The notes below the pieces were generated by a model. The model saw only the letters and a list, made by a program, of their open reading frames with translations, searched no databases and was not told where the DNA came from. From the IMG/VR virus record IMGVR_UViG_3300045988_042155, positions 1-6,600 of that record: 6,600 bases of DNA; one strand, given 5' to 3'. The translations under genes were made by a program, and so were the position numbers. Numbering within the stretch: the first letter of the stretch is position 1; each line of letters opens with the position of its first letter. Shown in pieces: positions 1-6,600 of this stretch. The stretch comes from a virus.

Positions 1-119
1 ATTTTTTTTCCATATTTAAATAGGTTTTTTGTCGACCTCAGCAATCAACAAAGAATTCTTATCATTCAAAGCTTTATGTTTAATACGTTCACGATTATCC
101 GCGGCATAATCTGCATAGC
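1..119. repeat. Terminal redundancy of a circular genome assembly (left copy); identical to 6482..6600, so the unit length is 6481 nt
   Basis: Base-by-base comparison shows 1..119 equals 6482..6600. The duplicated segment carries the 3' end of the VP4 CDS and the start codon of a small ORF, as expected for a circular contig cut arbitrarily. Confidence 0.95.
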
Positions 120-1635
120 TGGCTTGTAAAACAAGACTATCAAACACTATCTCTAAATAAGAACGCTTCATTATATCAACATCCGTCAACGGGTAAAAAT
201 AATATATAGATAAATTCTCACGTACATAAGAATCATTAGACCATTTCTCAACTTTCAATAACTGGTCACGCAAAGAACGTTTAGCGCAATAATCATAGAA
301 AGAATGAATTGAACGAACGGCATAACGTAATTGACCAGTAAACGCAACACTACCAACAGGAGCAGTAATCCAATTTTTAACTAAATTGCGATACTGAAGT
401 AACAAACGATAAACAGCACCACAGCCACTCTCGTCAGAAAAATTGATATACAACGACAGACGACAAGCGTTATAAATTACACGAAGTTCCTCAGGAGCAT
501 AGTCTAAAGAATGGTCTACTTCCAAATAACGACGAATAAGAAAATAAACACGCTTAGAAAGTTCAAAATCACTTACTTCATCAATAAATCCGAACCTGGC
601 AACAACTTGGGGGAGTCTCGATATAATTGTTGCAACTCGTATATCATCAGCCACAGTCGCATGCTTAGACTTATTAAGTCGGGGGTATAATCGATTGATA
701 TGCGACCGCTTAGGCCTGACAATTGTAGGCTTTCCATTAAGGTCGAGCACTCTACCATCATAGAATAAAGAGAATATTTTTTCATCTTCTTCCGGTTTAA
801 AGACTTCATCAAAAGCGGATTCCGCAAAATGGACAGAAAAGCGCCCGAACGGCTTAATATACCTAGAATTCTTAAAAAAGTTGGGAAGGCACGAAGTACT
901 ATTGACATATCCCGCAACGTAACATGAAGCCGAAGACCAGACAGGTTGCGTATCTGAATCACCAAATCGCCAGCTCTTAGAAACAAACTGTCGTATACTT
1001 TGTCTGAGCTCTTTCGAGTCGTGGAAAAGTAAGATATGGAAATGCGGACGGAATGTCGTTGGTCCATATTCGCCAACAACGTAGTAGTGAATCTTTTCAT
1101 TTGTTATTCTCCTTATATTTTGAATCAAACGTTTAAAAAAAAGCTGTATATCACGATAGTTAAGATAACCGACAAGACCTTCCATATAAGGCCTATTATA
1201 AATACGCCGACCATCAGGAAAAGAAGTGTAGTGTAGATGTGCTTTCTTCTGCAACAATTGTGCAGATTCCCAAGACAATTGAGCATCAAAGTCAAAATAT
1301 TCATCATTAAATGATATATCACGGTTATAACCTTGAACAGTATTATATGAATAAACAAAATCACGAGGCAAACAACGGAAACGAACCTCACCTCTTGAAC
1401 CTTTATAAAACTCACCGACTGGCAAATATTCCGTCGAATAAGTCAAAGTAATAAACTCGCAATACTTAGAAGCAGCCAATTGAACATTACATTTCAACTC
1501 AGCCTTGATAGCTTTATTATGTATACAAAACTCACACGTACCACAAGGAACATACACAGGGTCACCTGTATATTTGTTCTTTATCACACGAGGATAAAGA
1601 CAAGAGCCATATGTTTTACTTCTATCGTTAATCAT
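16..1635 (-). CDS. VP4: Replication initiation protein (Microviridae VP4, HUH rolling-circle endonuclease), 539 aa
   Basis: ATG at 1635..1633 and TAA at 18..16. N-terminal Cys cluster (CLYP...PCGTCEFC). Rolling-circle Rep motifs: FITLTYS (motif I), RPHFHILLF (HUH motif II) and CYVAGYVNS (catalytic Tyr region). This is the typical Microviridae VP4 architecture. Confidence 0.9.
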   Translation of the reverse strand: MINDRSKTYGSCLYPRVIKNKYTGDPVYVPCGTCEFCIHNKAIKAELKCNVQLAASKYCEFITLTYSTEYLPVGEFYKGSRGEVRFRCLPRDFVYSYNTVQGYNRDISFNDEYFDFDAQLSWESAQLLQKKAHLHYTSFPDGRRIYNRPYMEGLVGYLNYRDIQLFFKRLIQNIRRITNEKIHYYVVGEYGPTTFRPHFHILLFHDSKELRQSIRQFVSKSWRFGDSDTQPVWSSASCYVAGYVNSTSCLPNFFKNSRYIKPFGRFSVHFAESAFDEVFKPEEDEKIFSLFYDGRVLDLNGKPTIVRPKRSHINRLYPRLNKSKHATVADDIRVATIISRLPQVVARFGFIDEVSDFELSKRVYFLIRRYLEVDHSLDYAPEELRVIYNACRLSLYINFSDESGCGAVYRLLLQYRNLVKNWITAPVGSVAFTGQLRYAVRSIHSFYDYCAKRSLRDQLLKVEKWSNDSYVRENLSIYYFYPLTDVDIMKRSYLEIVFDSLVLQASYADYAADNRERIKHKALNDKNSLLIAEVDKKPI

Positions 1636-1639
1636 GCTG

Positions 1640-1671
1640 CAAACATAATAACTTTATTCTAATTACGCAAT
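1640..1671 (-). promoter_or_regulatory. Candidate Bacteroidota-type promoter (-33 TTG, 20-nt spacer, -7 TAtgTTTG) directly upstream of the VP4 ATG
   Basis: The minus strand reads aTTG (1671->1668), then 20 nt, then TATGTTTG (1647->1640), then gcagc, then ATG. This matches the published Bacteroides consensus TTTG-N19-21-TAnnTTTG. The predicted transcription start would fall at or next to the VP4 ATG, giving a leaderless or near-leaderless mRNA. Confidence 0.3.
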
Positions 1672-1689
1672 ACCTTTATATAGTCATGT

Positions 1690-1763
1690 GACTTTCGCCA
1701 ATCGTGAACAAGGAAGTTTGAACCGGAAATTACAATTAATCCGGTTTGCTTCGCACGAAAGTC
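1690..1763. other. Nested stem-loop domain: an 8-bp closing helix around a 7-bp GC stem capped by a 12-nt AT-rich loop; candidate origin hairpin or RNA domain
   Basis: gactttcg (1690..1697) pairs with cgaaagtc (1756..1763). aaccgga (1721..1727) pairs with tccggtt (1740..1746). The loop on the viral (minus) strand reads ttaattgtaatt. cgtg (1703..1706) and cacg (1754..1757) add further partial pairing. Confidence 0.5.
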
Positions 1764-1841
1764 GGAGAACTACGTACCAGTAAAATTTATAAACTATACA
1801 AACCAACGCTTCGCTAAGACCCTTCCGGGGGACCACGGCTC

Positions 1842-1868
1842 CGGCCCGTGGACGGCCGACGTTTTTTT
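1842..1868 (+). terminator. Intrinsic-terminator-like GC hairpin followed by T7, on the plus strand (antisense to all genes)
   Basis: cggcc (1842..1846) pairs with ggccg (1854..1858) around a 7-nt loop, followed by acg and then ttttttt (1862..1868). A competing hairpin is ccacgg (1833..1838) with ccgtgg (1846..1851). The stem is only 5 bp and a 3-nt spacer precedes the T-run, so this is a weak call. Confidence 0.3.
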
Positions 1869-1982
1869 CATGTTCGCTCCCGCTCTCACATAGAGATTTA
1901 GGGAGCCTTGCTCCCCCCAGAGGGTCCCCCCAGCTGGCTGGACAGATAGAAAGGACAGGAAATGTAGTGAAGCAGGAGGGCC

Positions 1983-2020
1983 ATACAGAAAAGGGACCAA
2001 CCAATTAAGGTCAATCCCTT
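1983..2020 (-). terminator. Candidate rho-independent terminator just downstream of the VP2 stop codon
   Basis: On the minus strand, aaggga (2020->2015) pairs with tccctt (1996->1991), and cc (2010->2009) pairs with gg (1998->1997). A T-rich run follows (ttctgt). The element begins 23 nt after the VP2 TAA. Confidence 0.4.
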
Positions 2021-2043: not shown

Positions 2044-3141
2044 TTAACGACCTCTATGTTGTCGCGTCCAAGAATAACCTCTATTATCATCAAAGATATC
2101 AACTGTACCACGATCAAACTGACGCTTAGACTCTTTTAACGAATTATTAGCATTTTTTAAGAAGCCAAATTTAGTAACAGAACCGACGATATTAGAAAGA
2201 CCATCAATAAGCTTACCGGCATTATTGATACCTCTATCCCAACGAGCTTTAACAGGATCTTGATACCAGCGATCCATTTTACCGGTACGATAACCGACAT
2301 CATTAGAAAATTCAGAATAACCTCGATTATAAGCAGCTTCATTCATCTTAGCAGTATTAGTAGCATCAATGATACTATCAGCGGTAGAACGCGCAACCTT
2401 ATTAGAAATATGCTGGCCAGCTGTACGAGCTTCAATCTCCAAACGAGTAGCAAGAAGATTTTTAGCCTGTTCTACTTTAAGCGAACCATCTCTAATCATA
2501 TTCCAATATTGTGCACCCATAGTAGAAAGAGCTATCTGTTTTTCCTGAGGCAAATACATATTCATAACCTCTTGAGCCTCAGAAGACAAAAGCAAACTAG
2601 CTTTTTGAGCAGTAGCAACATCAGATTGACGCTGTTTAAAATAAGTATCAGCTTCAGTATTAGCAATACGTGAAGAATAATCAGAAGCACCATACTTTCC
2701 TAACAAATCAGCTTCCGTACCAGACTTACGAGCATCAGAAAGAGACTTCATAGCACCAGCATAAGAAGCAACATCACCAATCATATTTGTAGGGGTGTAC
2801 TGGTAAGGTGTACCACCAGAACCAGAAGAACCAGAAGAGGGAGTTGCAAACGTAGACTGAGCAGAACCAGCCGAACCACCATTCATCATCAAATAAGGAT
2901 TTAAACCAGCTTCCTCTAAGCGTGCACGCTGATTTTTAGCGGAGTTCCATTCGTTCGTAGCGTCAAACATTGATCGAGCAAAATCGCGAGATTTCTGAGA
3001 TTCAGAACTTGCCCATTCGTTCTGAATACGTTGCATTTCAAGCTGATGTTTACGATTCTTAGAACCTTGCCGGTTATTTCCAATAGCATTAACGACACCG
3101 CTGGCTAAAGAACCAGCGGCACCAATAGCAGCACCTATCAT
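2044..3141 (-). CDS. VP2: Minor capsid / DNA pilot protein (Microviridae VP2), 365 aa
   Basis: The ATG at 3141 overlaps the upstream stop as ATGA. Gly/Ala-rich N-terminus (MIGAAIGAAGSLASG), then the motif typical of gokusho/alpavirus VP2 (NEWNSAKNQRARLEEAGLNPYLMM), then a Ser/Gly-rich linker and a helical C-terminal part. Confidence 0.85.
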   Translation of the reverse strand: MIGAAIGAAGSLASGVVNAIGNNRQGSKNRKHQLEMQRIQNEWASSESQKSRDFARSMFDATNEWNSAKNQRARLEEAGLNPYLMMNGGSAGSAQSTFATPSSGSSGSGGTPYQYTPTNMIGDVASYAGAMKSLSDARKSGTEADLLGKYGASDYSSRIANTEADTYFKQRQSDVATAQKASLLLSSEAQEVMNMYLPQEKQIALSTMGAQYWNMIRDGSLKVEQAKNLLATRLEIEARTAGQHISNKVARSTADSIIDATNTAKMNEAAYNRGYSEFSNDVGYRTGKMDRWYQDPVKARWDRGINNAGKLIDGLSNIVGSVTKFGFLKNANNSLKESKRQFDRGTVDIFDDNRGYSWTRQHRGR

Positions 3142-3644
3142 TCTGATTCTGAAAAAGATTGGGCAGATTGATTAGAGTTCTGTTCCTGTTGTTGTTGTTG
3201 CTGTTTAGCCAACTCAGCAGCCTGATAAGCGGCAACATCACCTTCGAGAGACTGACCTTCCGAAATCAAATATTCAAGCCAAGCTTGCATTTCAGTATAT
3301 GACTGAATATTACGGTCTTTACAATACTCCAAAAGGAACTTATCATCATAATGATTGGTATAAGGAGATGAAGAAGGACGTAAACCGTTCAAATAACGAC
3401 GTAATTGCGTTGGATTCATCTGATCAATAGCGGTTTGACCGGCAATAATACCATAATCACTGACAAACGTAAGCGAACCATCAAAATTTTTATCAAAGAG
3501 GAAATCCTCAACTGGAGATTGCTCGCGTAATACACCAGAGAGAGCAACACTGGCACAATGGACACCATGACAAGTACATTCATGTAACTGATTAGAGCGA
3601 TTAAGCGAATATTTCGCAAAACCTTTAAGAATATCTTTTTCCAT
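3138..3644 (-). CDS. Hypothetical protein, putative internal scaffolding protein (VP3-like), 168 aa, with a poly-Q, acidic C-terminus
   Basis: ATG at 3644 and TGA at 3140..3138, inside an ATGA overlap with VP2 (translational coupling). The size and the position between VP1 and VP2 fit a scaffold role. The function is positional inference only; I recognise no diagnostic motif. Confidence 0.6.
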   Translation of the reverse strand: MEKDILKGFAKYSLNRSNQLHECTCHGVHCASVALSGVLREQSPVEDFLFDKNFDGSLTFVSDYGIIAGQTAIDQMNPTQLRRYLNGLRPSSSPYTNHYDDKFLLEYCKDRNIQSYTEMQAWLEYLISEGQSLEGDVAAYQAAELAKQQQQQQEQNSNQSAQSFSESE

Positions 3645-3686: not shown

Positions 3687-5555
3687 TCAATACGGCATAC
3701 CATCATATGAAAGATTACGTGCAACCTTTACATCAAACTGACAATTGCAAAGCAACTGGTCCGAATTCCAAGAAGAATTAACGGCCACACCAAAAATAGG
3801 ATTAAGTACCGAGGGATTAACCTTAAACCAAGTATAAGAAAGTATAGGACTACCTTGTTCGGGCACAACGTTACCGAAAAATACGTGCATATAATCAGAA
3901 TCAACAGGAGCAACCCAAGATTTCAAAGTATCCGTAAAAGCACCACGAACAACATCAATAGATGTTTTCCAACTAATATAGCGTGGAACATAGCCGGCGT
4001 AAGAACGGGCAACAACATCACCGATAGCCTTAGAATTAACCAAAGAAAGCATAGGCAACGACTCCATACCTAAAGAATCAAACTCAGGAACAGGGAAAGA
4101 CTCACCTTTGACAGTAGTCATTAACTGTAAGTCAGGGCCTGTAGGCACGTAATCCAAAAGCGGAGTAGAATGATAAATACACATAATTATACCATGCTCT
4201 GTACAAGTAAAGGTTGACGGGTCATTAATACGTTGACCGCCTAAACCTCTACCACGAATAATAGCCTCGTCAGAAGTAAGGTTTGTATTTTCCACAGCTG
4301 AGATGTCGATAGAACCATCAAAACCGCAAATACGAGTAGAACGATGCGACTGTATAGGATTAGTTGAAACGCCGAAGTGAGCCTTAACCTGAGCAGCATA
4401 GTTTTGACCGTTCGCCTGAGCAATTTCTTTCCATTTTTGAAGAGCTTCGGCAGCGCGAAGCTGAAGAACAGAAAACTGCGAATTAATAGAACCAGCCAAG
4501 GCACCAGTCAAAGAAGAACCACTAATAGAGGCAGGGTCAGAAACAGCAGAAATAGGGCTTTTATCCGTAGCCTGAGCAAAGAGATAAGGACGTGCAGAAT
4601 CAGAAGTAGAATTAGGATAAACCGTAACCGTCTGACCATTCGAAGGAGCACCTACTACACGGCCACGGATAGCAACCTGATTTTCGATCAAAGTACCGTT
4701 TTCCTGAGCATTAACTACAGGAAGCATACCACGAACACGAGCCGTACCGGAAATAGTTACCTTAGCAGAAGAAGTATCAAAGCCAACAGAAACAGCCGCA
4801 ACATCGCCAAACTGACTGTTAGGTAAAGAACCCATCCAAAGATCTTTATTCCAGTTGGCATATCGCAACTCAAAAACTGAATCATTAGGATTCTGAGTAA
4901 ACAAATCTACAGAAGAGGCAACGGGCGTAGAATCCTCGCCATTCCAAAAGTCACAATTATAAGTCCATGGCTTATTCTTTTCCCATTGGGAATGTCTGTA
5001 ATAATCCTGATAAATCTTCTGATAAGCATAAAGGGGTAAAGCGCTACAACGAAGATTGTCAACATACTTTTCGGGTGAGGTCTCACCATATCCCAAATAA
5101 CTAACAAGTTTTTTAAAACCCTCTGAGCGAGCAAGACCAAAAAAATTATTTGGCGAGGCCGAAGACTGAACATTGCCGATAGCAGCGTTAATAGTAGACA
5201 AATCAACCCATGGCAGATTGCGGTTAAAACTAATAGAAGCAGAGCTAGAAGCAGCATAGTTAGGCTGATTCTCCATTGACATGATTGCCTCGTTACTATT
5301 ACGATAAAGCAAATGCAAAGGAACAAAAAACCATTCATAATACTCACGTATGCGGGTAAACGCGGAAGTGTCAACAGGTTGCGTACGTGCAAACCATTCT
5401 TGCGAAATATGGAACTTATCACCCGGCAAACAGAATTTCCAATAAGTAGGTAAAAGCTCACCTACCTTAGCGGTAAATGCACACTTATTAGACAGGTCAA
5501 AACCTGAACGGCGAGGTGTATTTTTAATATCACCATAAGAAAATAAACTACTCAT
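3687..5555 (-). CDS. VP1: Major capsid protein (Microviridae VP1 / F-protein family), 622 aa
   Basis: N-terminus typical of the family: RRSGFDLSNKCAFTAKVGELLP...LPGDKF...FFVPLHLLY. It also has the later conserved SVLQLRAAEALQKWKE block. This is the longest ORF. Its ATG overlaps the upstream stop as ATGA (5555..5552). Confidence 0.95.
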   Translation of the reverse strand: MSSLFSYGDIKNTPRRSGFDLSNKCAFTAKVGELLPTYWKFCLPGDKFHISQEWFARTQPVDTSAFTRIREYYEWFFVPLHLLYRNSNEAIMSMENQPNYAASSSASISFNRNLPWVDLSTINAAIGNVQSSASPNNFFGLARSEGFKKLVSYLGYGETSPEKYVDNLRCSALPLYAYQKIYQDYYRHSQWEKNKPWTYNCDFWNGEDSTPVASSVDLFTQNPNDSVFELRYANWNKDLWMGSLPNSQFGDVAAVSVGFDTSSAKVTISGTARVRGMLPVVNAQENGTLIENQVAIRGRVVGAPSNGQTVTVYPNSTSDSARPYLFAQATDKSPISAVSDPASISGSSLTGALAGSINSQFSVLQLRAAEALQKWKEIAQANGQNYAAQVKAHFGVSTNPIQSHRSTRICGFDGSIDISAVENTNLTSDEAIIRGRGLGGQRINDPSTFTCTEHGIIMCIYHSTPLLDYVPTGPDLQLMTTVKGESFPVPEFDSLGMESLPMLSLVNSKAIGDVVARSYAGYVPRYISWKTSIDVVRGAFTDTLKSWVAPVDSDYMHVFFGNVVPEQGSPILSYTWFKVNPSVLNPIFGVAVNSSWNSDQLLCNCQFDVKVARNLSYDGMPY

Positions 5556-5767
5556 TTTTCATCAAATTTAAAATTAATAACTAATTGTTTTTCTTTCTCT
5601 GAAGCAAAAACGTCAGAAGATCGTAAAGGAACAAGAGAATTTTCTTTACAACGGACAATCTCAATTTCATACAAATAGTTTTTATAATAATGAACATAAT
5701 TCTCGGGAATCCCGTCTACCAAAACATTATGAATAGACGGGAAAGAATCAAAATCAAAATTAGGCAT
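5552..5767 (-). CDS. Hypothetical protein, 71 aa from ATG 5767; the open frame continues upstream to ATG 5905 or GTG 5929, overlapping the peptidase gene
   Basis: The ATG at 5767..5765 overlaps the peptidase stop by 8 nt. The TGA at 5554..5552 sits in an ATGA overlap with the VP1 start. I recognise no homology. The start codon choice is uncertain. Confidence 0.55.
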   Translation of the reverse strand: MPNFDFDSFPSIHNVLVDGIPENYVHYYKNYLYEIEIVRCKENSLVPLRSSDVFASEKEKQLVINFKFDEK

Positions 5768-6164
5768 CTCTAACAATAACTTGAGACCGCGGACTAGGAG
5801 ACCAAGAAACATGAATAAAATTTCGTTTCTTATAATAAATAAGCTGATCAAAAGGCAAATGTAACTCCTGAACAAGGTCAAACAACTTAGGTAAAGAAGA
5901 GACATCACGTACAGTAATATCGGCAGCACAACCTAATTTATGCTGAGATGTAGAAACACCACCTACACGCTCATTAACAAAATTAGAACGGAAACCAGAG
6001 TTAACATACAAAGACTTGCCAAAAGCAGAACGTAACGGATCAAGAATCTTTTCACACAAAATAAGAAGATTTTCCAAACTATTCCAATCAGGAATATTAT
6101 TCGAAAGGTCTGTGAAACTTGTATCTATAAACTCAAACAGAGAGAAATACTTAGGCTTATACAT
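5760..6164 (-). CDS. Peptidase M15 family zinc D-Ala-D-Ala carboxypeptidase-like protein (putative cell-wall lysin), 134 aa
   Basis: The sequence SGFRSNFVNERVGGVSTSQHKLGCAADI contains the SxHxxGxAxD zinc-binding motif, and the downstream NFIHVSW supplies the third His ligand. This matches the VanY / peptidase_M15 fold signature. ATG at 6164, TAA at 5762..5760. Confidence 0.8.
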   Translation of the reverse strand: MYKPKYFSLFEFIDTSFTDLSNNIPDWNSLENLLILCEKILDPLRSAFGKSLYVNSGFRSNFVNERVGGVSTSQHKLGCAADITVRDVSSLPKLFDLVQELHLPFDQLIYYKKRNFIHVSWSPSPRSQVIVRDA

Positions 6165-6339: not shown

Positions 6340-6494
6340 ACTGATAAATCAGGTTCAGTCATAACAGCAACAGGTCTCAAAATCTCAACAACATAGCCAA
6401 GAGACAAATAATAATCAAGAAGATCAAGACTAATTACAACATCTCTCTTATGTCCTAAATAATGGAGATAAACAAAATAATATTTTTTTTCCAT
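6333..6494 (-). CDS. Small hypothetical protein B, 53 aa (MEKKYYFVYLHYLGHKRDVVISLDLLDYYLSLGYVVEILRPVAVMTEPDLSVD); paralog of ORF A
   Basis: Translated by hand. ATG at 6494..6492 (equivalent to 13..11) lies 2 nt after the VP4 stop on the circle, and TAA is at 6335..6333. It shares MEKKYYF, VVIS and LGYVVE blocks with ORF A. Confidence 0.6.
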   Translation of the reverse strand: MEKKYYFVYLHYLGHKRDVVISLDLLDYYLSLGYVVEILRPVAVMTEPDLSVD

Positions 6495-6600
6495 ATTTAA
6501 ATAGGTTTTTTGTCGACCTCAGCAATCAACAAAGAATTCTTATCATTCAAAGCTTTATGTTTAATACGTTCACGATTATCCGCGGCATAATCTGCATAGC
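6482..6600. repeat. Terminal redundancy (right copy), identical to 1..119; 6497..6600 repeats the 3' end of the VP4 CDS on the minus strand
   Basis: Exact identity with 1..119. This is not a second gene copy but circular wrap-around. Confidence 0.95.

What the first reader, a model, noticed from the sequence alone, without database searches (positions are those of the whole stretch)
1801..1990. GC-rich, hairpin- and pseudoknot-dense non-coding island in an otherwise AT-rich, tightly packed microvirus genome
Composition: by my hand count 111 of 190 bases (about 58%) are G+C here, against about 37% in a sampled coding stretch (61..120). Coding potential: there is none I would credit. The 106-aa track ORF starts with TTG and has no internal ATG, and the 107-aa ORF is an out-of-frame run-on from inside VP2. 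Local pairing: 1833..1838/1846..1851 (6 bp) and 1842..1846/1854..1858 (5 bp) overlap. They can also be drawn as an H-type pseudoknot using 1842..1845/1855..1858. Further hairpins are 1901..1906/1910..1915 (6 bp, small loop) and 1884..1887/1893..1896. Long-range pairing: gggggacc (1827..1834) forms an 8-bp helix with ggtccccc (1923..1930). A mutually exclusive 6-bp helix joins gaccct (1818..1823) to agggtc (1921..1926). Repeat: the 9-mer tccccccag occurs twice (1912..1920 and 1925..1933), giving alternative C-tract partners for the G5 run, which looks switch-like. Context: every other gene junction is overlapped or separated by at most 42 nt, so keeping this segment argues for function. Hypotheses: (a) a structured ncRNA or ribozyme-like element; (b) a complementary-strand (single-strand initiation) origin, like the hairpin clusters in the phiX174/G4 intergenic regions; (c) an attP or horizontally acquired host fragment. 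I could not match it by eye to any family. It has no hammerhead CUGANGA core, no HDV-like P1/P2/P3 topology, no tRNA cloverleaf, and no SRP, RNase P or tmRNA signatures.
Basis: partly seen in the sequence, partly recalled or inferred. Interest (0 to 1): 0.75.

Follow-up and report, generated by a model that had tools for sequence, protein, structure and literature searches.

The report
Conserved hairpin island, probable replication origin
The GC-rich stretch is a real non-coding element and the best-conserved part of this small Bacteroides virus genome; it most likely folds, as single-stranded DNA, into hairpins that let the host start copying the incoming viral strand.

Summary
Bases 1801-1990 are 58% G+C against 38.6% for the 6481-nt circular microvirus genome. 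They sit in its only large non-coding gap (1636-2043, between the pilot and rep genes). The island is not coding, matches no Rfam family and has no copy in bacterial or plasmid DNA.

It occurs in 21 distinct related genomes, including the cultured Bacteroides fragilis phage phiHBP1, where a hypothetical CDS is annotated over it. Its core is the most conserved 100 nt of the genome (89% against a 64% mean).

The long-range helix, pseudoknot and switch are not supported. What is kept is a row of short local hairpins on the packaged strand. Several carry C-GNA-G or C-GNNA-G "DNA mini-hairpin" caps, as at the G4 and phiX174 complementary-strand priming sites.

In 68 relatives with a 5.5-7.4 kb genome (65 distant ones plus the window and two clade members), a GC-rich, mini-hairpin-rich stretch lies just upstream of a 78-nt structured element. 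That element (window 1686-1763) is covariation-supported and present once in each of about 80 genomes searched.

Best reading (about 0.5): the island is the complementary-strand origin, next to a probable Rep nick-site element and the rep promoter. This layout resembles the filamentous-phage intergenic region. No step has been shown experimentally.

The parts
1991..2020 (-). 12-bp hairpin directly after the pilot-gene (VP2) stop, followed by a T-run. It is a probable intrinsic terminator of the late transcript.
   Evidence: Terminator scan. All 17 sequence variants in 21 relatives fold as a hairpin although two clades differ completely in sequence. It tolerates several G.T(U) wobbles, which is RNA-like. 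The second clade lacks the T-run.
1967..1986 (-). Conserved pyrimidine-rich, apparently unpaired block GTATGGCCCTCCTGCTTCAC at the 5' edge of the island.
   Evidence: Near-invariant columns 98-116 of alignment A3.
1801..1990 (-). GC-rich island as flagged. It is a non-coding hairpin cluster on the packaged (coding-sense) strand and the candidate complementary-strand origin.
   Evidence: 58% GC. Present in 21 distinct relatives. Mean identity 80% against a genome mean of 64%; 1851-1950 is the genome's best-conserved 100 nt at 89%. Frame-breaking indels, and stops in all three viral-strand frames in two relatives.
1901..1915 (-). Hairpin GGGAGC-AAG-GCTCCC (6 bp).
   Evidence: The stem is invariant. 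The loop is 3, 4 or 6 nt in different relatives.
1889..1906 (-). 18-nt block GCTCCCTAAATCTCTATG, invariant in the 21 relatives, all of which were retrieved or retained through an exact match to it. It comprises the 3' arm of the hairpin plus an unpaired tail.
   Evidence: It served as the search key, so its invariance across the set is partly circular; six of the genomes were found independently through Rep or whole-genome similarity.
1876..1883 (-). Mini-hairpin GC[GGGA]GC.
   Evidence: Kept in 21 of 21 relatives as GC[GGGA/GGTA]GC or GAC[GGGA/GGTA]GTC, with one compensatory position.
1862..1868 (-). Invariant A7 tract (T7 on the plus strand).
   Evidence: Invariant in 21 of 21. With hairpin 1842-1858 it reads as a terminator-like site on the plus strand. 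Its role is unexplained.
1833..1858 (-). Two overlapping hairpins: CCACGG/CCGTGG (1833-1838/1846-1851) and CGGCC/GGCCG (1842-1846/1854-1858).
   Evidence: The first is invariant. The second has one compensatory pair (2 sequences) and six C-to-T changes that keep G.T pairing on this strand only. The one freely varying base falls at N of a CGNAG motif.
1820..1829 (-). Mini-hairpin CCC[GGAA]GGG.
Evidence: Kept in 21 of 21 in three stem versions: CCC/GGG, GCC/GGC and CTC/GAG, with GGA, GGAA or GGGA loops. That gives two compensatory positions.
1808..1814 (-). Mini-hairpin heptamer GCGAAGC.
   Evidence: (repeat D6). Present as GCGAAGC or GCGGAGC in 10 of 21 relatives. The same heptamer lies in the phiX174 F-G intergenic region.
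1686..1763 (-). 'Element 2', a 78-nt structured element made of:
- a 9-bp outer helix;
- the GCGAAGC mini-hairpin (1748-1754);
- a 7-bp hairpin (1721-1727/1740-1746);
- an unpaired CTYGTCY motif (1706-1712);
- a 3' ACAY tail.
It is a probable viral-strand origin or Rep nick site.
   Evidence: Covariation: 90% of cells paired against 70% in shuffles, and 14 of 19 pairs with changes on both sides. Model R1 finds one copy per genome, always on the viral strand, in about 80 genomes. In that alignment 94.8% of cells pair and the internal pairs show almost no G.U intermediates.
1640..1671 (-). Candidate Bacteroidota-type promoter for rep: ATTG, 20 nt, then TATGTTTG, ending 4 nt before the rep ATG.
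   Evidence: In 29 of 68 relatives an exact TTTG-N18-22-TAnnTTTG starts 41 nt after Element 2. This is a consensus match only.

Best explanation
The island is the GC-rich half of the phage's single non-coding replication-control region, and it acts as DNA, not as a gene or an RNA.

Proposed mechanism:
1. In the packaged single strand (the minus strand of the window) it folds into a row of short, very stable hairpins.
2. Several of these are capped by C-GNA-G or C-GNNA-G 'mini-hairpin' loops, with invariant unpaired stretches between them.
3. After the genome enters the cell, these hairpins stay free of single-strand-binding protein.
4. They mark the place where a host enzyme (primase, RNA polymerase or the PriA primosome; which one is unknown) lays down the primer for the complementary strand. 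The island would therefore be the minus-strand origin.

The neighbouring 78-nt element (1686-1763) most likely carries the Rep nick site, that is the plus-strand origin, and is followed by the rep promoter.

Shown here: conservation, lack of coding potential, strand specificity, local hairpins, enrichment of the motif, and the shared layout across the lineage.
Inferred: the folding in vivo, the priming function, and which module serves which origin.
For: - It lies in the only large non-coding gap, is non-coding, and is the genome's most conserved segment.
- The hairpins are local and on the viral strand. Mini-hairpins at 1820-1829 and 1876-1883 are kept in 21 of 21 relatives with compensatory stem changes. 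Wobble changes fit this strand only.
- In 64 distant relatives the largest ORF-free gap holds 190 mini-hairpin motifs on the viral strand against 24 on the complementary strand. Elsewhere the counts are 504 against 624.
- C[GAA]G is by far the commonest small-loop hairpin there. RNA-type GNRA tetraloops are not enriched.
- Counting only the 255 nt upstream of Element 2 gives 129 against 17, with 33 +/- 6 in shuffles. In 15 unrelated sequence clusters the counts are 28 against 6.
- A GC excess of 10-15 points sits just upstream of Element 2 in 68 genomes.
- Known minus-strand origins measured here look the same. The G4 origin gap is 58% GC against 46% for the genome, with CGGCGAAAGCCG at the annotated primer. 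phiX174 has GCGAAGC in its F-G gap. M13 hairpins A-C are 57.5% GC against 41%. The literature on mini-hairpins at priming sites agrees (PMC13037366).
- No promoter-like site lies in or upstream of the island on either strand.
- There is precedent for conserved hairpins upstream of rep in other microviruses (PMC9865509).
Against: - No experiment bears on priming.
- The folding energy is not better than shuffles.
- Inside the island most stems are invariant, so covariation is thin.
- The very high primary-sequence conservation suggests recognition by a protein, which could be Rep rather than a host enzyme.
- The island sequence has no detectable homologue in 77 distant relatives.
- 18 of 68 relatives lack a window of 55% GC or more upstream of Element 2. 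One example is L036.
- Hairpin 1842-1858 tolerates G.T wobbles, which is more typical of RNA.
- The assignment of the island to the minus origin and Element 2 to the plus origin could be the other way round.
- Genomes in the enrichment counts are phylogenetically related.
Confidence: 0.5

Rival explanations
1. The island is the Rep-recognised part of the viral-strand origin (a binding or enhancer domain, or the nick site itself), and Element 2 is instead the host-recognised complementary-strand origin. The two modules would be assigned the other way round.
For: - The island is conserved at the level of primary sequence, with an invariant 18-mer and an invariant A7 tract. That looks like protein recognition.
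- It is specific to one clade, as expected for something that co-evolves with a phage protein.
- Element 2 is shared by phages whose Rep is only 27-35% identical, as expected for a host-recognised site. It carries a mini-hairpin at a fixed position, like G4 hairpin I.
Against: - Element 2 carries an unpaired CTYGTCY motif that resembles the phiX174 nick context CTTG|ATA. The comparison with pC194 is from memory.
- Its helices avoid G.T pairs, as expected if both strands of the duplex must fold.
- Minus origins are the more dispensable and variable module in other ssDNA replicons (general knowledge). That matches the variable presence of the island.
- Between the sub-clades Rep differs by 43% in amino acids while the island core differs by only 11%.
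Confidence: 0.2
2. The island works as RNA. It could be a structured 3' untranslated tail of the late (capsid-scaffold-pilot) transcript that blocks exonucleases or reinforces termination, or a small non-coding RNA of a new class.
For: - The structure is on the mRNA-sense strand.
- A GC-rich island in an AT-rich genome is a classic sign of an ncRNA (general knowledge).
- Hairpin 1842-1858 varies through G.U-compatible changes.
- The post-VP2 hairpin in the second clade has no U-run, so read-through into the island is plausible.
Against: - No Rfam match, even with permissive settings.
- The loop repertoire follows the DNA mini-hairpin rule: GNA triloops and GNNA loops including GGTA and GATA. 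GNRA tetraloops are not enriched.
- No promoter-like site upstream or inside.
- A terminator-like hairpin precedes the island in the window's own clade.
- Folding energy is not exceptional.
Confidence: 0.17
3. The island encodes a small protein, as annotated in phiHBP1 (136-aa hypothetical protein) and as suggested by the 106- and 107-aa ORFs in the window.
For: An ORF is annotated over it in PV598014. GC-rich sequence has few stop codons, so ORFs appear in several relatives.
Against: - Island length varies from 173 to 181 nt with all three residues modulo 3.
- Two relatives have stops in all three viral-strand frames.
- Variation shows no 3-base periodicity (28/20/25).
- A short ORF starting at the conserved ATG is cut by TAG in 3 relatives.
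- No Pfam family reaches threshold.
Confidence: 0.03
4. The island is an attachment site (a dif-like target for XerC/XerD) or a fragment recently acquired from the host.
For: Microvirus prophages exist in Bacteroidota, and dif-like sites lie in non-coding regions of some gokushoviruses (PMC7062461).
Against: - The invariant 18-mer has no true hit in 185,579 species-representative genomes. All metagenome hits with flanking similarity are microvirus-sized contigs.
- No plasmid hit.
- phiHBP1 showed no lysogeny or prophage (PMC13064476).
- A dif site is a 28-bp AT-rich motif, not a 190-nt GC-rich block.
Confidence: 0.03

Closest known systems
Complementary-strand origin of phage G4 (also St-1 and alpha3): primase-dependent, in the F-G intergenic region
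   Same: - A GC-rich hairpin cluster in an intergenic gap of a microvirus. G4 measures 58% against 46% for its genome; here it is 58% against 39%.
- It is on the viral strand.
- It contains a GCGAAAGC-type mini-hairpin. In G4 this lies at the annotated primer (PMC13037366).
- Unpaired conserved sequence lies 3' of stable hairpins.
   Different: - No sequence similarity.
- Different gene neighbours: pilot and rep here, F and G in G4.
- Host is Bacteroides, not E. coli.
- The island is longer (about 170-190 nt) and holds more hairpins.
- The priming enzyme is unknown and nothing has been tested.
Intergenic region of filamentous phages (M13, f1, fd)
   Same: - The order of parts on the viral strand is the same: terminator hairpin after the last late gene, GC-rich hairpins of the minus origin, plus origin with the nick site, then the promoter of the initiator gene (for the sequence; the functional map is from general knowledge).
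- The Rep here matches Pfam REP_ORF2-G2P, a family that includes gene II protein.
- The GC excess is similar: 57.5% against 41%.
   Different: - A different virus family and particle type.
- No packaging signal is expected in a microvirus.
- No sequence homology (model R1 finds nothing in M13).
- M13 priming is by RNA polymerase with sigma-70, whose promoter rules differ from those of Bacteroides.
phiX174 n' (PriA) primosome assembly site, and the single-strand origins (sso) of rolling-circle plasmids
   Same: A hairpin in an intergenic region of the single strand that nucleates host priming. phiX174 carries GCGAAGC in that gap. Plasmids place an sso next to the double-strand origin, as the island lies next to Element 2.
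   Different: The phiX174 gap is not GC-rich (43%). No similarity to the sso conserved motifs was tested or seen.
DNA mini-hairpins d(GCGNAGC) and d(GCGNNAGC) (Hirao and colleagues)
   Same: The exact heptamer GCGAAGC occurs twice in the gap. There are also GC[GGGA]GC and CCC[GGAA]GGG. Relatives alternate between GNA and GNNA loops, always closed by a C-G pair.
   Different: Their stability here is assumed from the literature and was not measured. Some stems are only 2-3 bp.

Membership tests
Complementary-strand origin of an ssDNA phage (functional class) | Lies in a non-coding part of the packaged strand | tested here: met
   It is in the only large gap, 1636-2043, and holds no conserved ORF.
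Complementary-strand origin of an ssDNA phage (functional class) | Conserved hairpins specific to the viral strand | tested here: inconclusive
   Local hairpins are kept in 21 of 21 relatives with some compensatory changes, and the loop motifs are strand-specific. However, most stems are invariant and the folding energy is not better than shuffles.
Complementary-strand origin of an ssDNA phage (functional class) | Directs primer synthesis by a host enzyme on SSB-coated viral DNA | not testable with these tools
   This needs in vitro priming or mapping of the 5' end of the nascent strand.
G4, phiX174 or M13 origin (membership by homology) | Sequence or structure similarity to the characterised origins | tested here: not met
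   The only match to the gap in the phage collection is phiHBP1. Model R1 finds nothing in G4, phiX174 or M13. The resemblance is functional, not homologous.
Any Rfam RNA family (ribozymes, riboswitches, sRNAs, tRNA-like) | Covariance-model score at or near the gathering threshold | tested here: not met
   The best scores are 13-14 bits against thresholds of 34-80. No tRNA or tmRNA was found.
DNA mini-hairpin motif | Sequence rule: C-G closing pair, GNA or GNNA loop, and at least one further pair | tested here: met
   Five instances lie on the viral strand of the gap, three of them in the flagged island and one more just downstream of it, against two on the other strand.
DNA mini-hairpin motif | Unusual thermal and nuclease stability | not testable with these tools
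   The nearest-neighbour parameters available carry no bonus for these loops.
dif-like attP (XerC/XerD integration) | Copy at prophage-host junctions, and a lysogenic lifestyle | tested here: not met
   No bacterial-genome copy was found. phiHBP1 is not lysogenic.
Protein-coding gene | Reading frame conserved across relatives | tested here: not met
   frame-shifting indels, stops and no codon periodicity.
Intrinsic terminator (for the hairpin at 1991-2020 only) | GC-containing stem followed by a U-run on the transcribed strand | tested here: inconclusive
   The rule is met in the window and its near relatives. In the second clade the hairpin is kept but the U-run is missing.

The most novel reading that the evidence does not exclude
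Gut Bacteroidota microviruses share a previously undescribed two-part origin region: a universal 78-nt three-helix DNA element with a fixed C-GAA-G mini-hairpin (Element 2), and a lineage-variable GC-rich cluster of mini-hairpins, of which this island is one instance. The mini-hairpins would be the actual signal that a Bacteroides priming enzyme reads on single-stranded DNA. That would extend to a major group of human-gut viruses a mechanism so far only suggested for G4.
Probability: 0.35. Interest if true: 0.7.

Novelty: new variant of a known kind. Interest (0 to 1): 0.55.

Why it matters
Microviruses of Bacteroidota are among the most abundant viruses of the human gut, and their first cultured member, phiHBP1, was reported only in December 2025. 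Nothing is known about how they start replication.

This analysis points to the region that most likely holds both origins. It gives exact coordinates and hairpins to mutate in a phage that can now be grown, and it corrects a probably spurious gene annotation in that phage.

It also provides a covariance model (Element 2) that marks the viral strand and the origin region in about 80 metagenomic genomes. If the mini-hairpin reading is right, it would be the first evidence outside coliphages that these unusually stable DNA loops mark priming sites.

Tried and rejected
- **Rfam.** I searched the whole window and the gap alone with permissive settings. Only chance-level matches appeared.
- **tRNA and tmRNA.** None were found.
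- **Thermodynamic test.** Minimum folding energy against dinucleotide shuffles, as RNA and as DNA, gave no signal.
- **All-against-all column covariation on A3.** It was swamped by the two-clade split of the alignment and was not used.
- **RNAalifold global fold of the gap.** Its long-range pairs inside the island rest on G and C runs, and I did not adopt them.
No support. Its 6-bp alternative (1818-1823/1921-1926) was not scored separately.
- **Small ORF starting at the conserved ATGAAAAAAACG.** Rejected, because of TAG at codon 11 in 3 relatives and a frameshift in L014.
- **nhmmer profile of the island against 77 distant genomes.** No hits. A covariance model of the island itself was therefore not built.
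- **Shared short words between the island and the M13 minus origin (GGCTCCCT, CTAAATC).** I judged these to be chance, given the lengths compared.
- **Bacteroides-type promoter on the plus strand that could drive a primer-like or antisense RNA ending at the plus-strand terminator-like site 1842-1868.** None was found.
- **Six of the 20 metagenome hits and the single genome hit to the 18-mer.** These had no flanking similarity and were discarded as chance.

Full report
**What the window is.** The 6600 bases are one circular microvirus genome of 6481 nt, read with a 119-nt terminal overlap. All genes lie on the minus strand, which is therefore the mRNA-sense and packaged strand.
- rep: 16-1635 (Pfam REP_ORF2-G2P)
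- pilot gene: 2044-3141
- scaffold gene: 3138-3644
- capsid F: 3687-5555
- M15 peptidase: 5760-6164

The only large non-coding gap is 1636-2043. The flagged island, 1801-1990, lies inside it.

**Checking the observation.** The base count is exact: 111 of 190 bases are G+C, against 38.6% for the genome. The region is the compositional maximum of the genome.

The stretch nevertheless folds no better than dinucleotide shuffles (z = -0.46 and -0.99 as RNA, -0.91 for the whole gap as DNA). Hairpin density alone is therefore what this composition gives by chance. Any case for function has to come from comparison with relatives.

**Relatives.** The closest public genome is Bacteroides phage phiHBP1 (PV598014). 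It was isolated on B. fragilis and is described as the first cultured Bacteroidota microvirus (PMC13064476). It is 82% identical over the genome and 87% over the gap. Its GenBank record places a 136-aa hypothetical CDS over the island.

I searched three public collections with Rep and with an 18-mer that was invariant in the first six relatives. This gave 21 distinct gap sequences, all from contigs no longer than a microvirus genome (about 2.7-6.7 kb). Six further metagenome hits and the single bacterial-genome hit had no flanking similarity and are chance matches. The island is therefore not an assembly chimera and not a host fragment. It also has no plasmid match, and phiHBP1 does not lysogenise.

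**Conservation and coding.** I compared the window with seven genomes of the more distant sub-clade, whose Rep is about 57% identical.

| Region | Mean identity |
|---|---|
| Genome | 63.7% |
| rep | 63.3% |
| Capsid gene | 66.7% |
| Island | 80.2% |
| Island core 1851-1950 | 88.9% |

The core is the best-conserved 100 nt of the whole genome.

The island is not a gene:
- Its length ranges over 173-181 nt, with all residues modulo 3.
- Two relatives have stops in all three sense frames.
- Variable sites show no codon periodicity.
- The ORFs match no Pfam family at threshold.

**Structure inside the island.** The alternative-partner 'switch' falls with it.

What is kept is local:
- Hairpin GGGAGC/GCTCCC has an invariant stem, and its loop is 3, 4 or 6 nt.
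- Hairpin CCACGG/CCGTGG is invariant.
- The overlapping CGGCC/GGCCG has one compensatory pair and six C-to-T changes that keep pairing on this strand only.
- Two small hairpins are kept in all 21 sequences with compensatory stem changes: CCC[GGAA]GGG / GCC[GGA]GGC / CTC[GGA or GGGA]GAG, and GC[GGGA or GGTA]GC / GAC[..]GTC.
- A GCGAAGC heptamer closes the island at 1808-1814.

Between these lie invariant unpaired stretches (CCCTAAATCTCTATG and ATGAAAAAAACGTC). The hairpin directly after the pilot-gene stop (1991-2020) behaves differently. Its sequence differs completely between clades, it always folds, it tolerates several wobbles, and in the window's clade a T-run follows it. I read it as the terminator of the late transcript.

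**The neighbouring element.** The strongest covariation in the gap lies outside the flagged coordinates, at 1686-1763. I call this Element 2. It consists of:
- a 9-bp outer helix;
- a GCGAAGC mini-hairpin;
- a 7-8-bp hairpin of freely varying sequence;
- an unpaired CTYGTCY motif;
- a 3' ACAY tail.

On 24 diverse sequences, 90% of cells pair, against 70% in shuffles and at most 43% when partners are slid. Fourteen of 19 pairs change on both sides. My seed finder required the outer helix and the mini-hairpin, but it did not require the third helix, and all 8 pairs of that helix covary.

A covariance model built from these sequences finds one copy per genome, always on the Rep-coding strand. It does so in about 80 distinct genomes whose Rep is as little as 27% identical to the window's. 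It finds nothing in G4, phiX174 or M13. The internal pairs switch between Watson-Crick types with almost no G.U intermediates. That is what DNA pairing would predict, not RNA pairing.

**A layout shared by the lineage.** In 68 genomes, the 200 nt just upstream of Element 2 run 10-15 points above the genome's GC content, and the 150 nt downstream run 11 points below it. An exact Bacteroidota promoter consensus starts 41 nt after Element 2 in 29 of them. The island sequence itself has no detectable homologue outside the window's own clade. The architecture is shared; the sequence is not.

**The mini-hairpin signal.** I counted hairpins with a C-G closing pair, a GNA or GNNA loop and at least one further pair.

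| Region counted | Viral strand | Complementary strand | Dinucleotide shuffles |
|---|---|---|---|
| Largest ORF-free gap, 64 distant genomes (5.7% of each genome) | 190 | 24 | - |
| Rest of those genomes | 504 | 624 | - |
| 255 nt upstream of Element 2 only | 129 | 17 | 33 +/- 6 |
| One representative of each of 15 unrelated sequence clusters | 28 | 6 | - |

- Among all small-loop hairpins in those gaps, C[GAA]G stands far above the rest (70; the next is 16). RNA-type GNRA tetraloops are not enriched (18 against 15).
- GCGAAGC is the single most enriched 7-mer: 37 of 64 gaps on the viral strand and none on the other.
- In the 15 unrelated clusters, 13 favour the viral strand and none the other.
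- In Element 2, 47 of 49 triloops are GNA and only 5 of 28 tetraloops are GNRA.

This loop repertoire matches the unusually stable DNA mini-hairpins d(GCGNAGC) and d(GCGNNAGC). These were described at the primase site of the G4 complementary-strand origin, in St-1 and alpha3, in RSF1010 ssiA and in N4 promoters (PMC13037366).

**Comparators measured here**:
- The annotated G4 complementary-strand origin gap is 58% GC against 46% for the genome, with CGGCGAAAGCCG under the annotated primer.
- The phiX174 F-G gap, which holds the PriA site, contains GCGAAGC.
- The phiX174 viral-strand origin CAACTTGATATTAATAACACTATAGACCAC is followed by CCCCGAAGGGG.
- M13 hairpins A-C are 57.5% GC against 41%.

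**Interpretation.** The gap reads, 5' to 3' on the viral strand:
1. terminator hairpin;
2. GC-rich hairpin cluster (the island);
3. short AT-rich variable spacer;
4. Element 2;
5. rep promoter;
6. rep.

This is the order of parts in the filamentous-phage intergenic region. The functional map of that region is from general knowledge.

I assign the island to complementary-strand initiation for these reasons:
- It is strand-specific and rich in DNA-type stable hairpins.
- It is not preceded by a promoter-like site.
- It is variable or absent between lineages, as minus origins tend to be.
- It resembles the three known phage minus origins in composition and motif.

I assign Element 2 to the viral-strand origin for these reasons:
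- It is universal and present in single copy.
- It avoids wobble pairs.
- It exposes CTYGTCY, which recalls the CTTG|ATA nick context of phiX174. The pC194 parallel is from memory.

Both assignments are inferences and could be swapped. An RNA-level role is not excluded.

**Verdict.** The finding is real and the element is functional. Its specific structural claims (long-range helix, switch, pseudoknot) are not. This is a new, lineage-specific variant of a known kind of element, in a virus group where replication origins have never been described.

Noticed in passing
window 1686-1763 (minus strand): A 78-nt three-helix element ('Element 2') with strong covariation. It occurs once per genome, always on the Rep-coding strand, in about 80 microvirus genomes. 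It matches no Rfam family and no description in the paper library searched.
   Followed up: yes
window 573-1100 (minus strand), inside rep: A 175-aa ORF in an alternative frame of rep, preceded by AAGGAG 8 nt before its ATG. It stays free of stops over 159-175 codons in all 10 clade genomes tested, including those only 51-53% identical. It is probably a real overprinted gene, like B and K inside gene A of phiX174.
   Followed up: partly
L001 (phiHBP1, PV598014) 2326-2736: The GenBank record annotates a 136-aa hypothetical protein across the island and into the end of the pilot gene. The comparative evidence says this reading frame is not conserved, so the CDS is probably spurious.
   Followed up: yes
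window 1842-1868 (plus strand): On the strand opposite to all genes, hairpin CGGCC-CGTGGAC-GGCCG followed by ACG and T7 reads as an intrinsic terminator. The run (A7 on the viral strand) is invariant in 21 of 21 relatives. If RNA polymerase made the primer on the viral strand, this would be a self-terminating primer. No promoter-like site was found to support that. Unexplained.
   Followed up: partly
L039 4071 and 4170; L072, L084, L102 and others, within 300 nt upstream of Element 2: The motif GTA(A/T)ACATCC lies directly 3' of a GAA- or GGAAT-capped hairpin. It occurs 49 times on the viral strand against 3 on the complementary strand, in 36 of 68 genomes, and often twice per genome. The window has CTAAATCTC after its own hairpin instead. 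It could be an initiation or protein-binding site.
   Followed up: partly
loci L035-L114, 40-41 nt after Element 2: An exact Bacteroidota promoter consensus TTTG-N18-22-TAnnTTTG begins at a nearly fixed 41 nt after Element 2 in 29 of 68 genomes. That is about half of all exact matches in those genomes. It suggests coupling between Element 2 and the downstream promoter.
   Followed up: partly
window 1912-1933 (G6 runs on the minus strand): The two G6 runs vary between G5 and G8 among assemblies, always by single bases. This could be real homopolymer variation or sequencing error. It is the source of several of the frame-breaking indels.
   Followed up: no
window 1-119 and 6482-6600: The two ends of the window are identical over 119 nt, so the window is a circular genome of 6481 nt read past its start.
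   Followed up: yes
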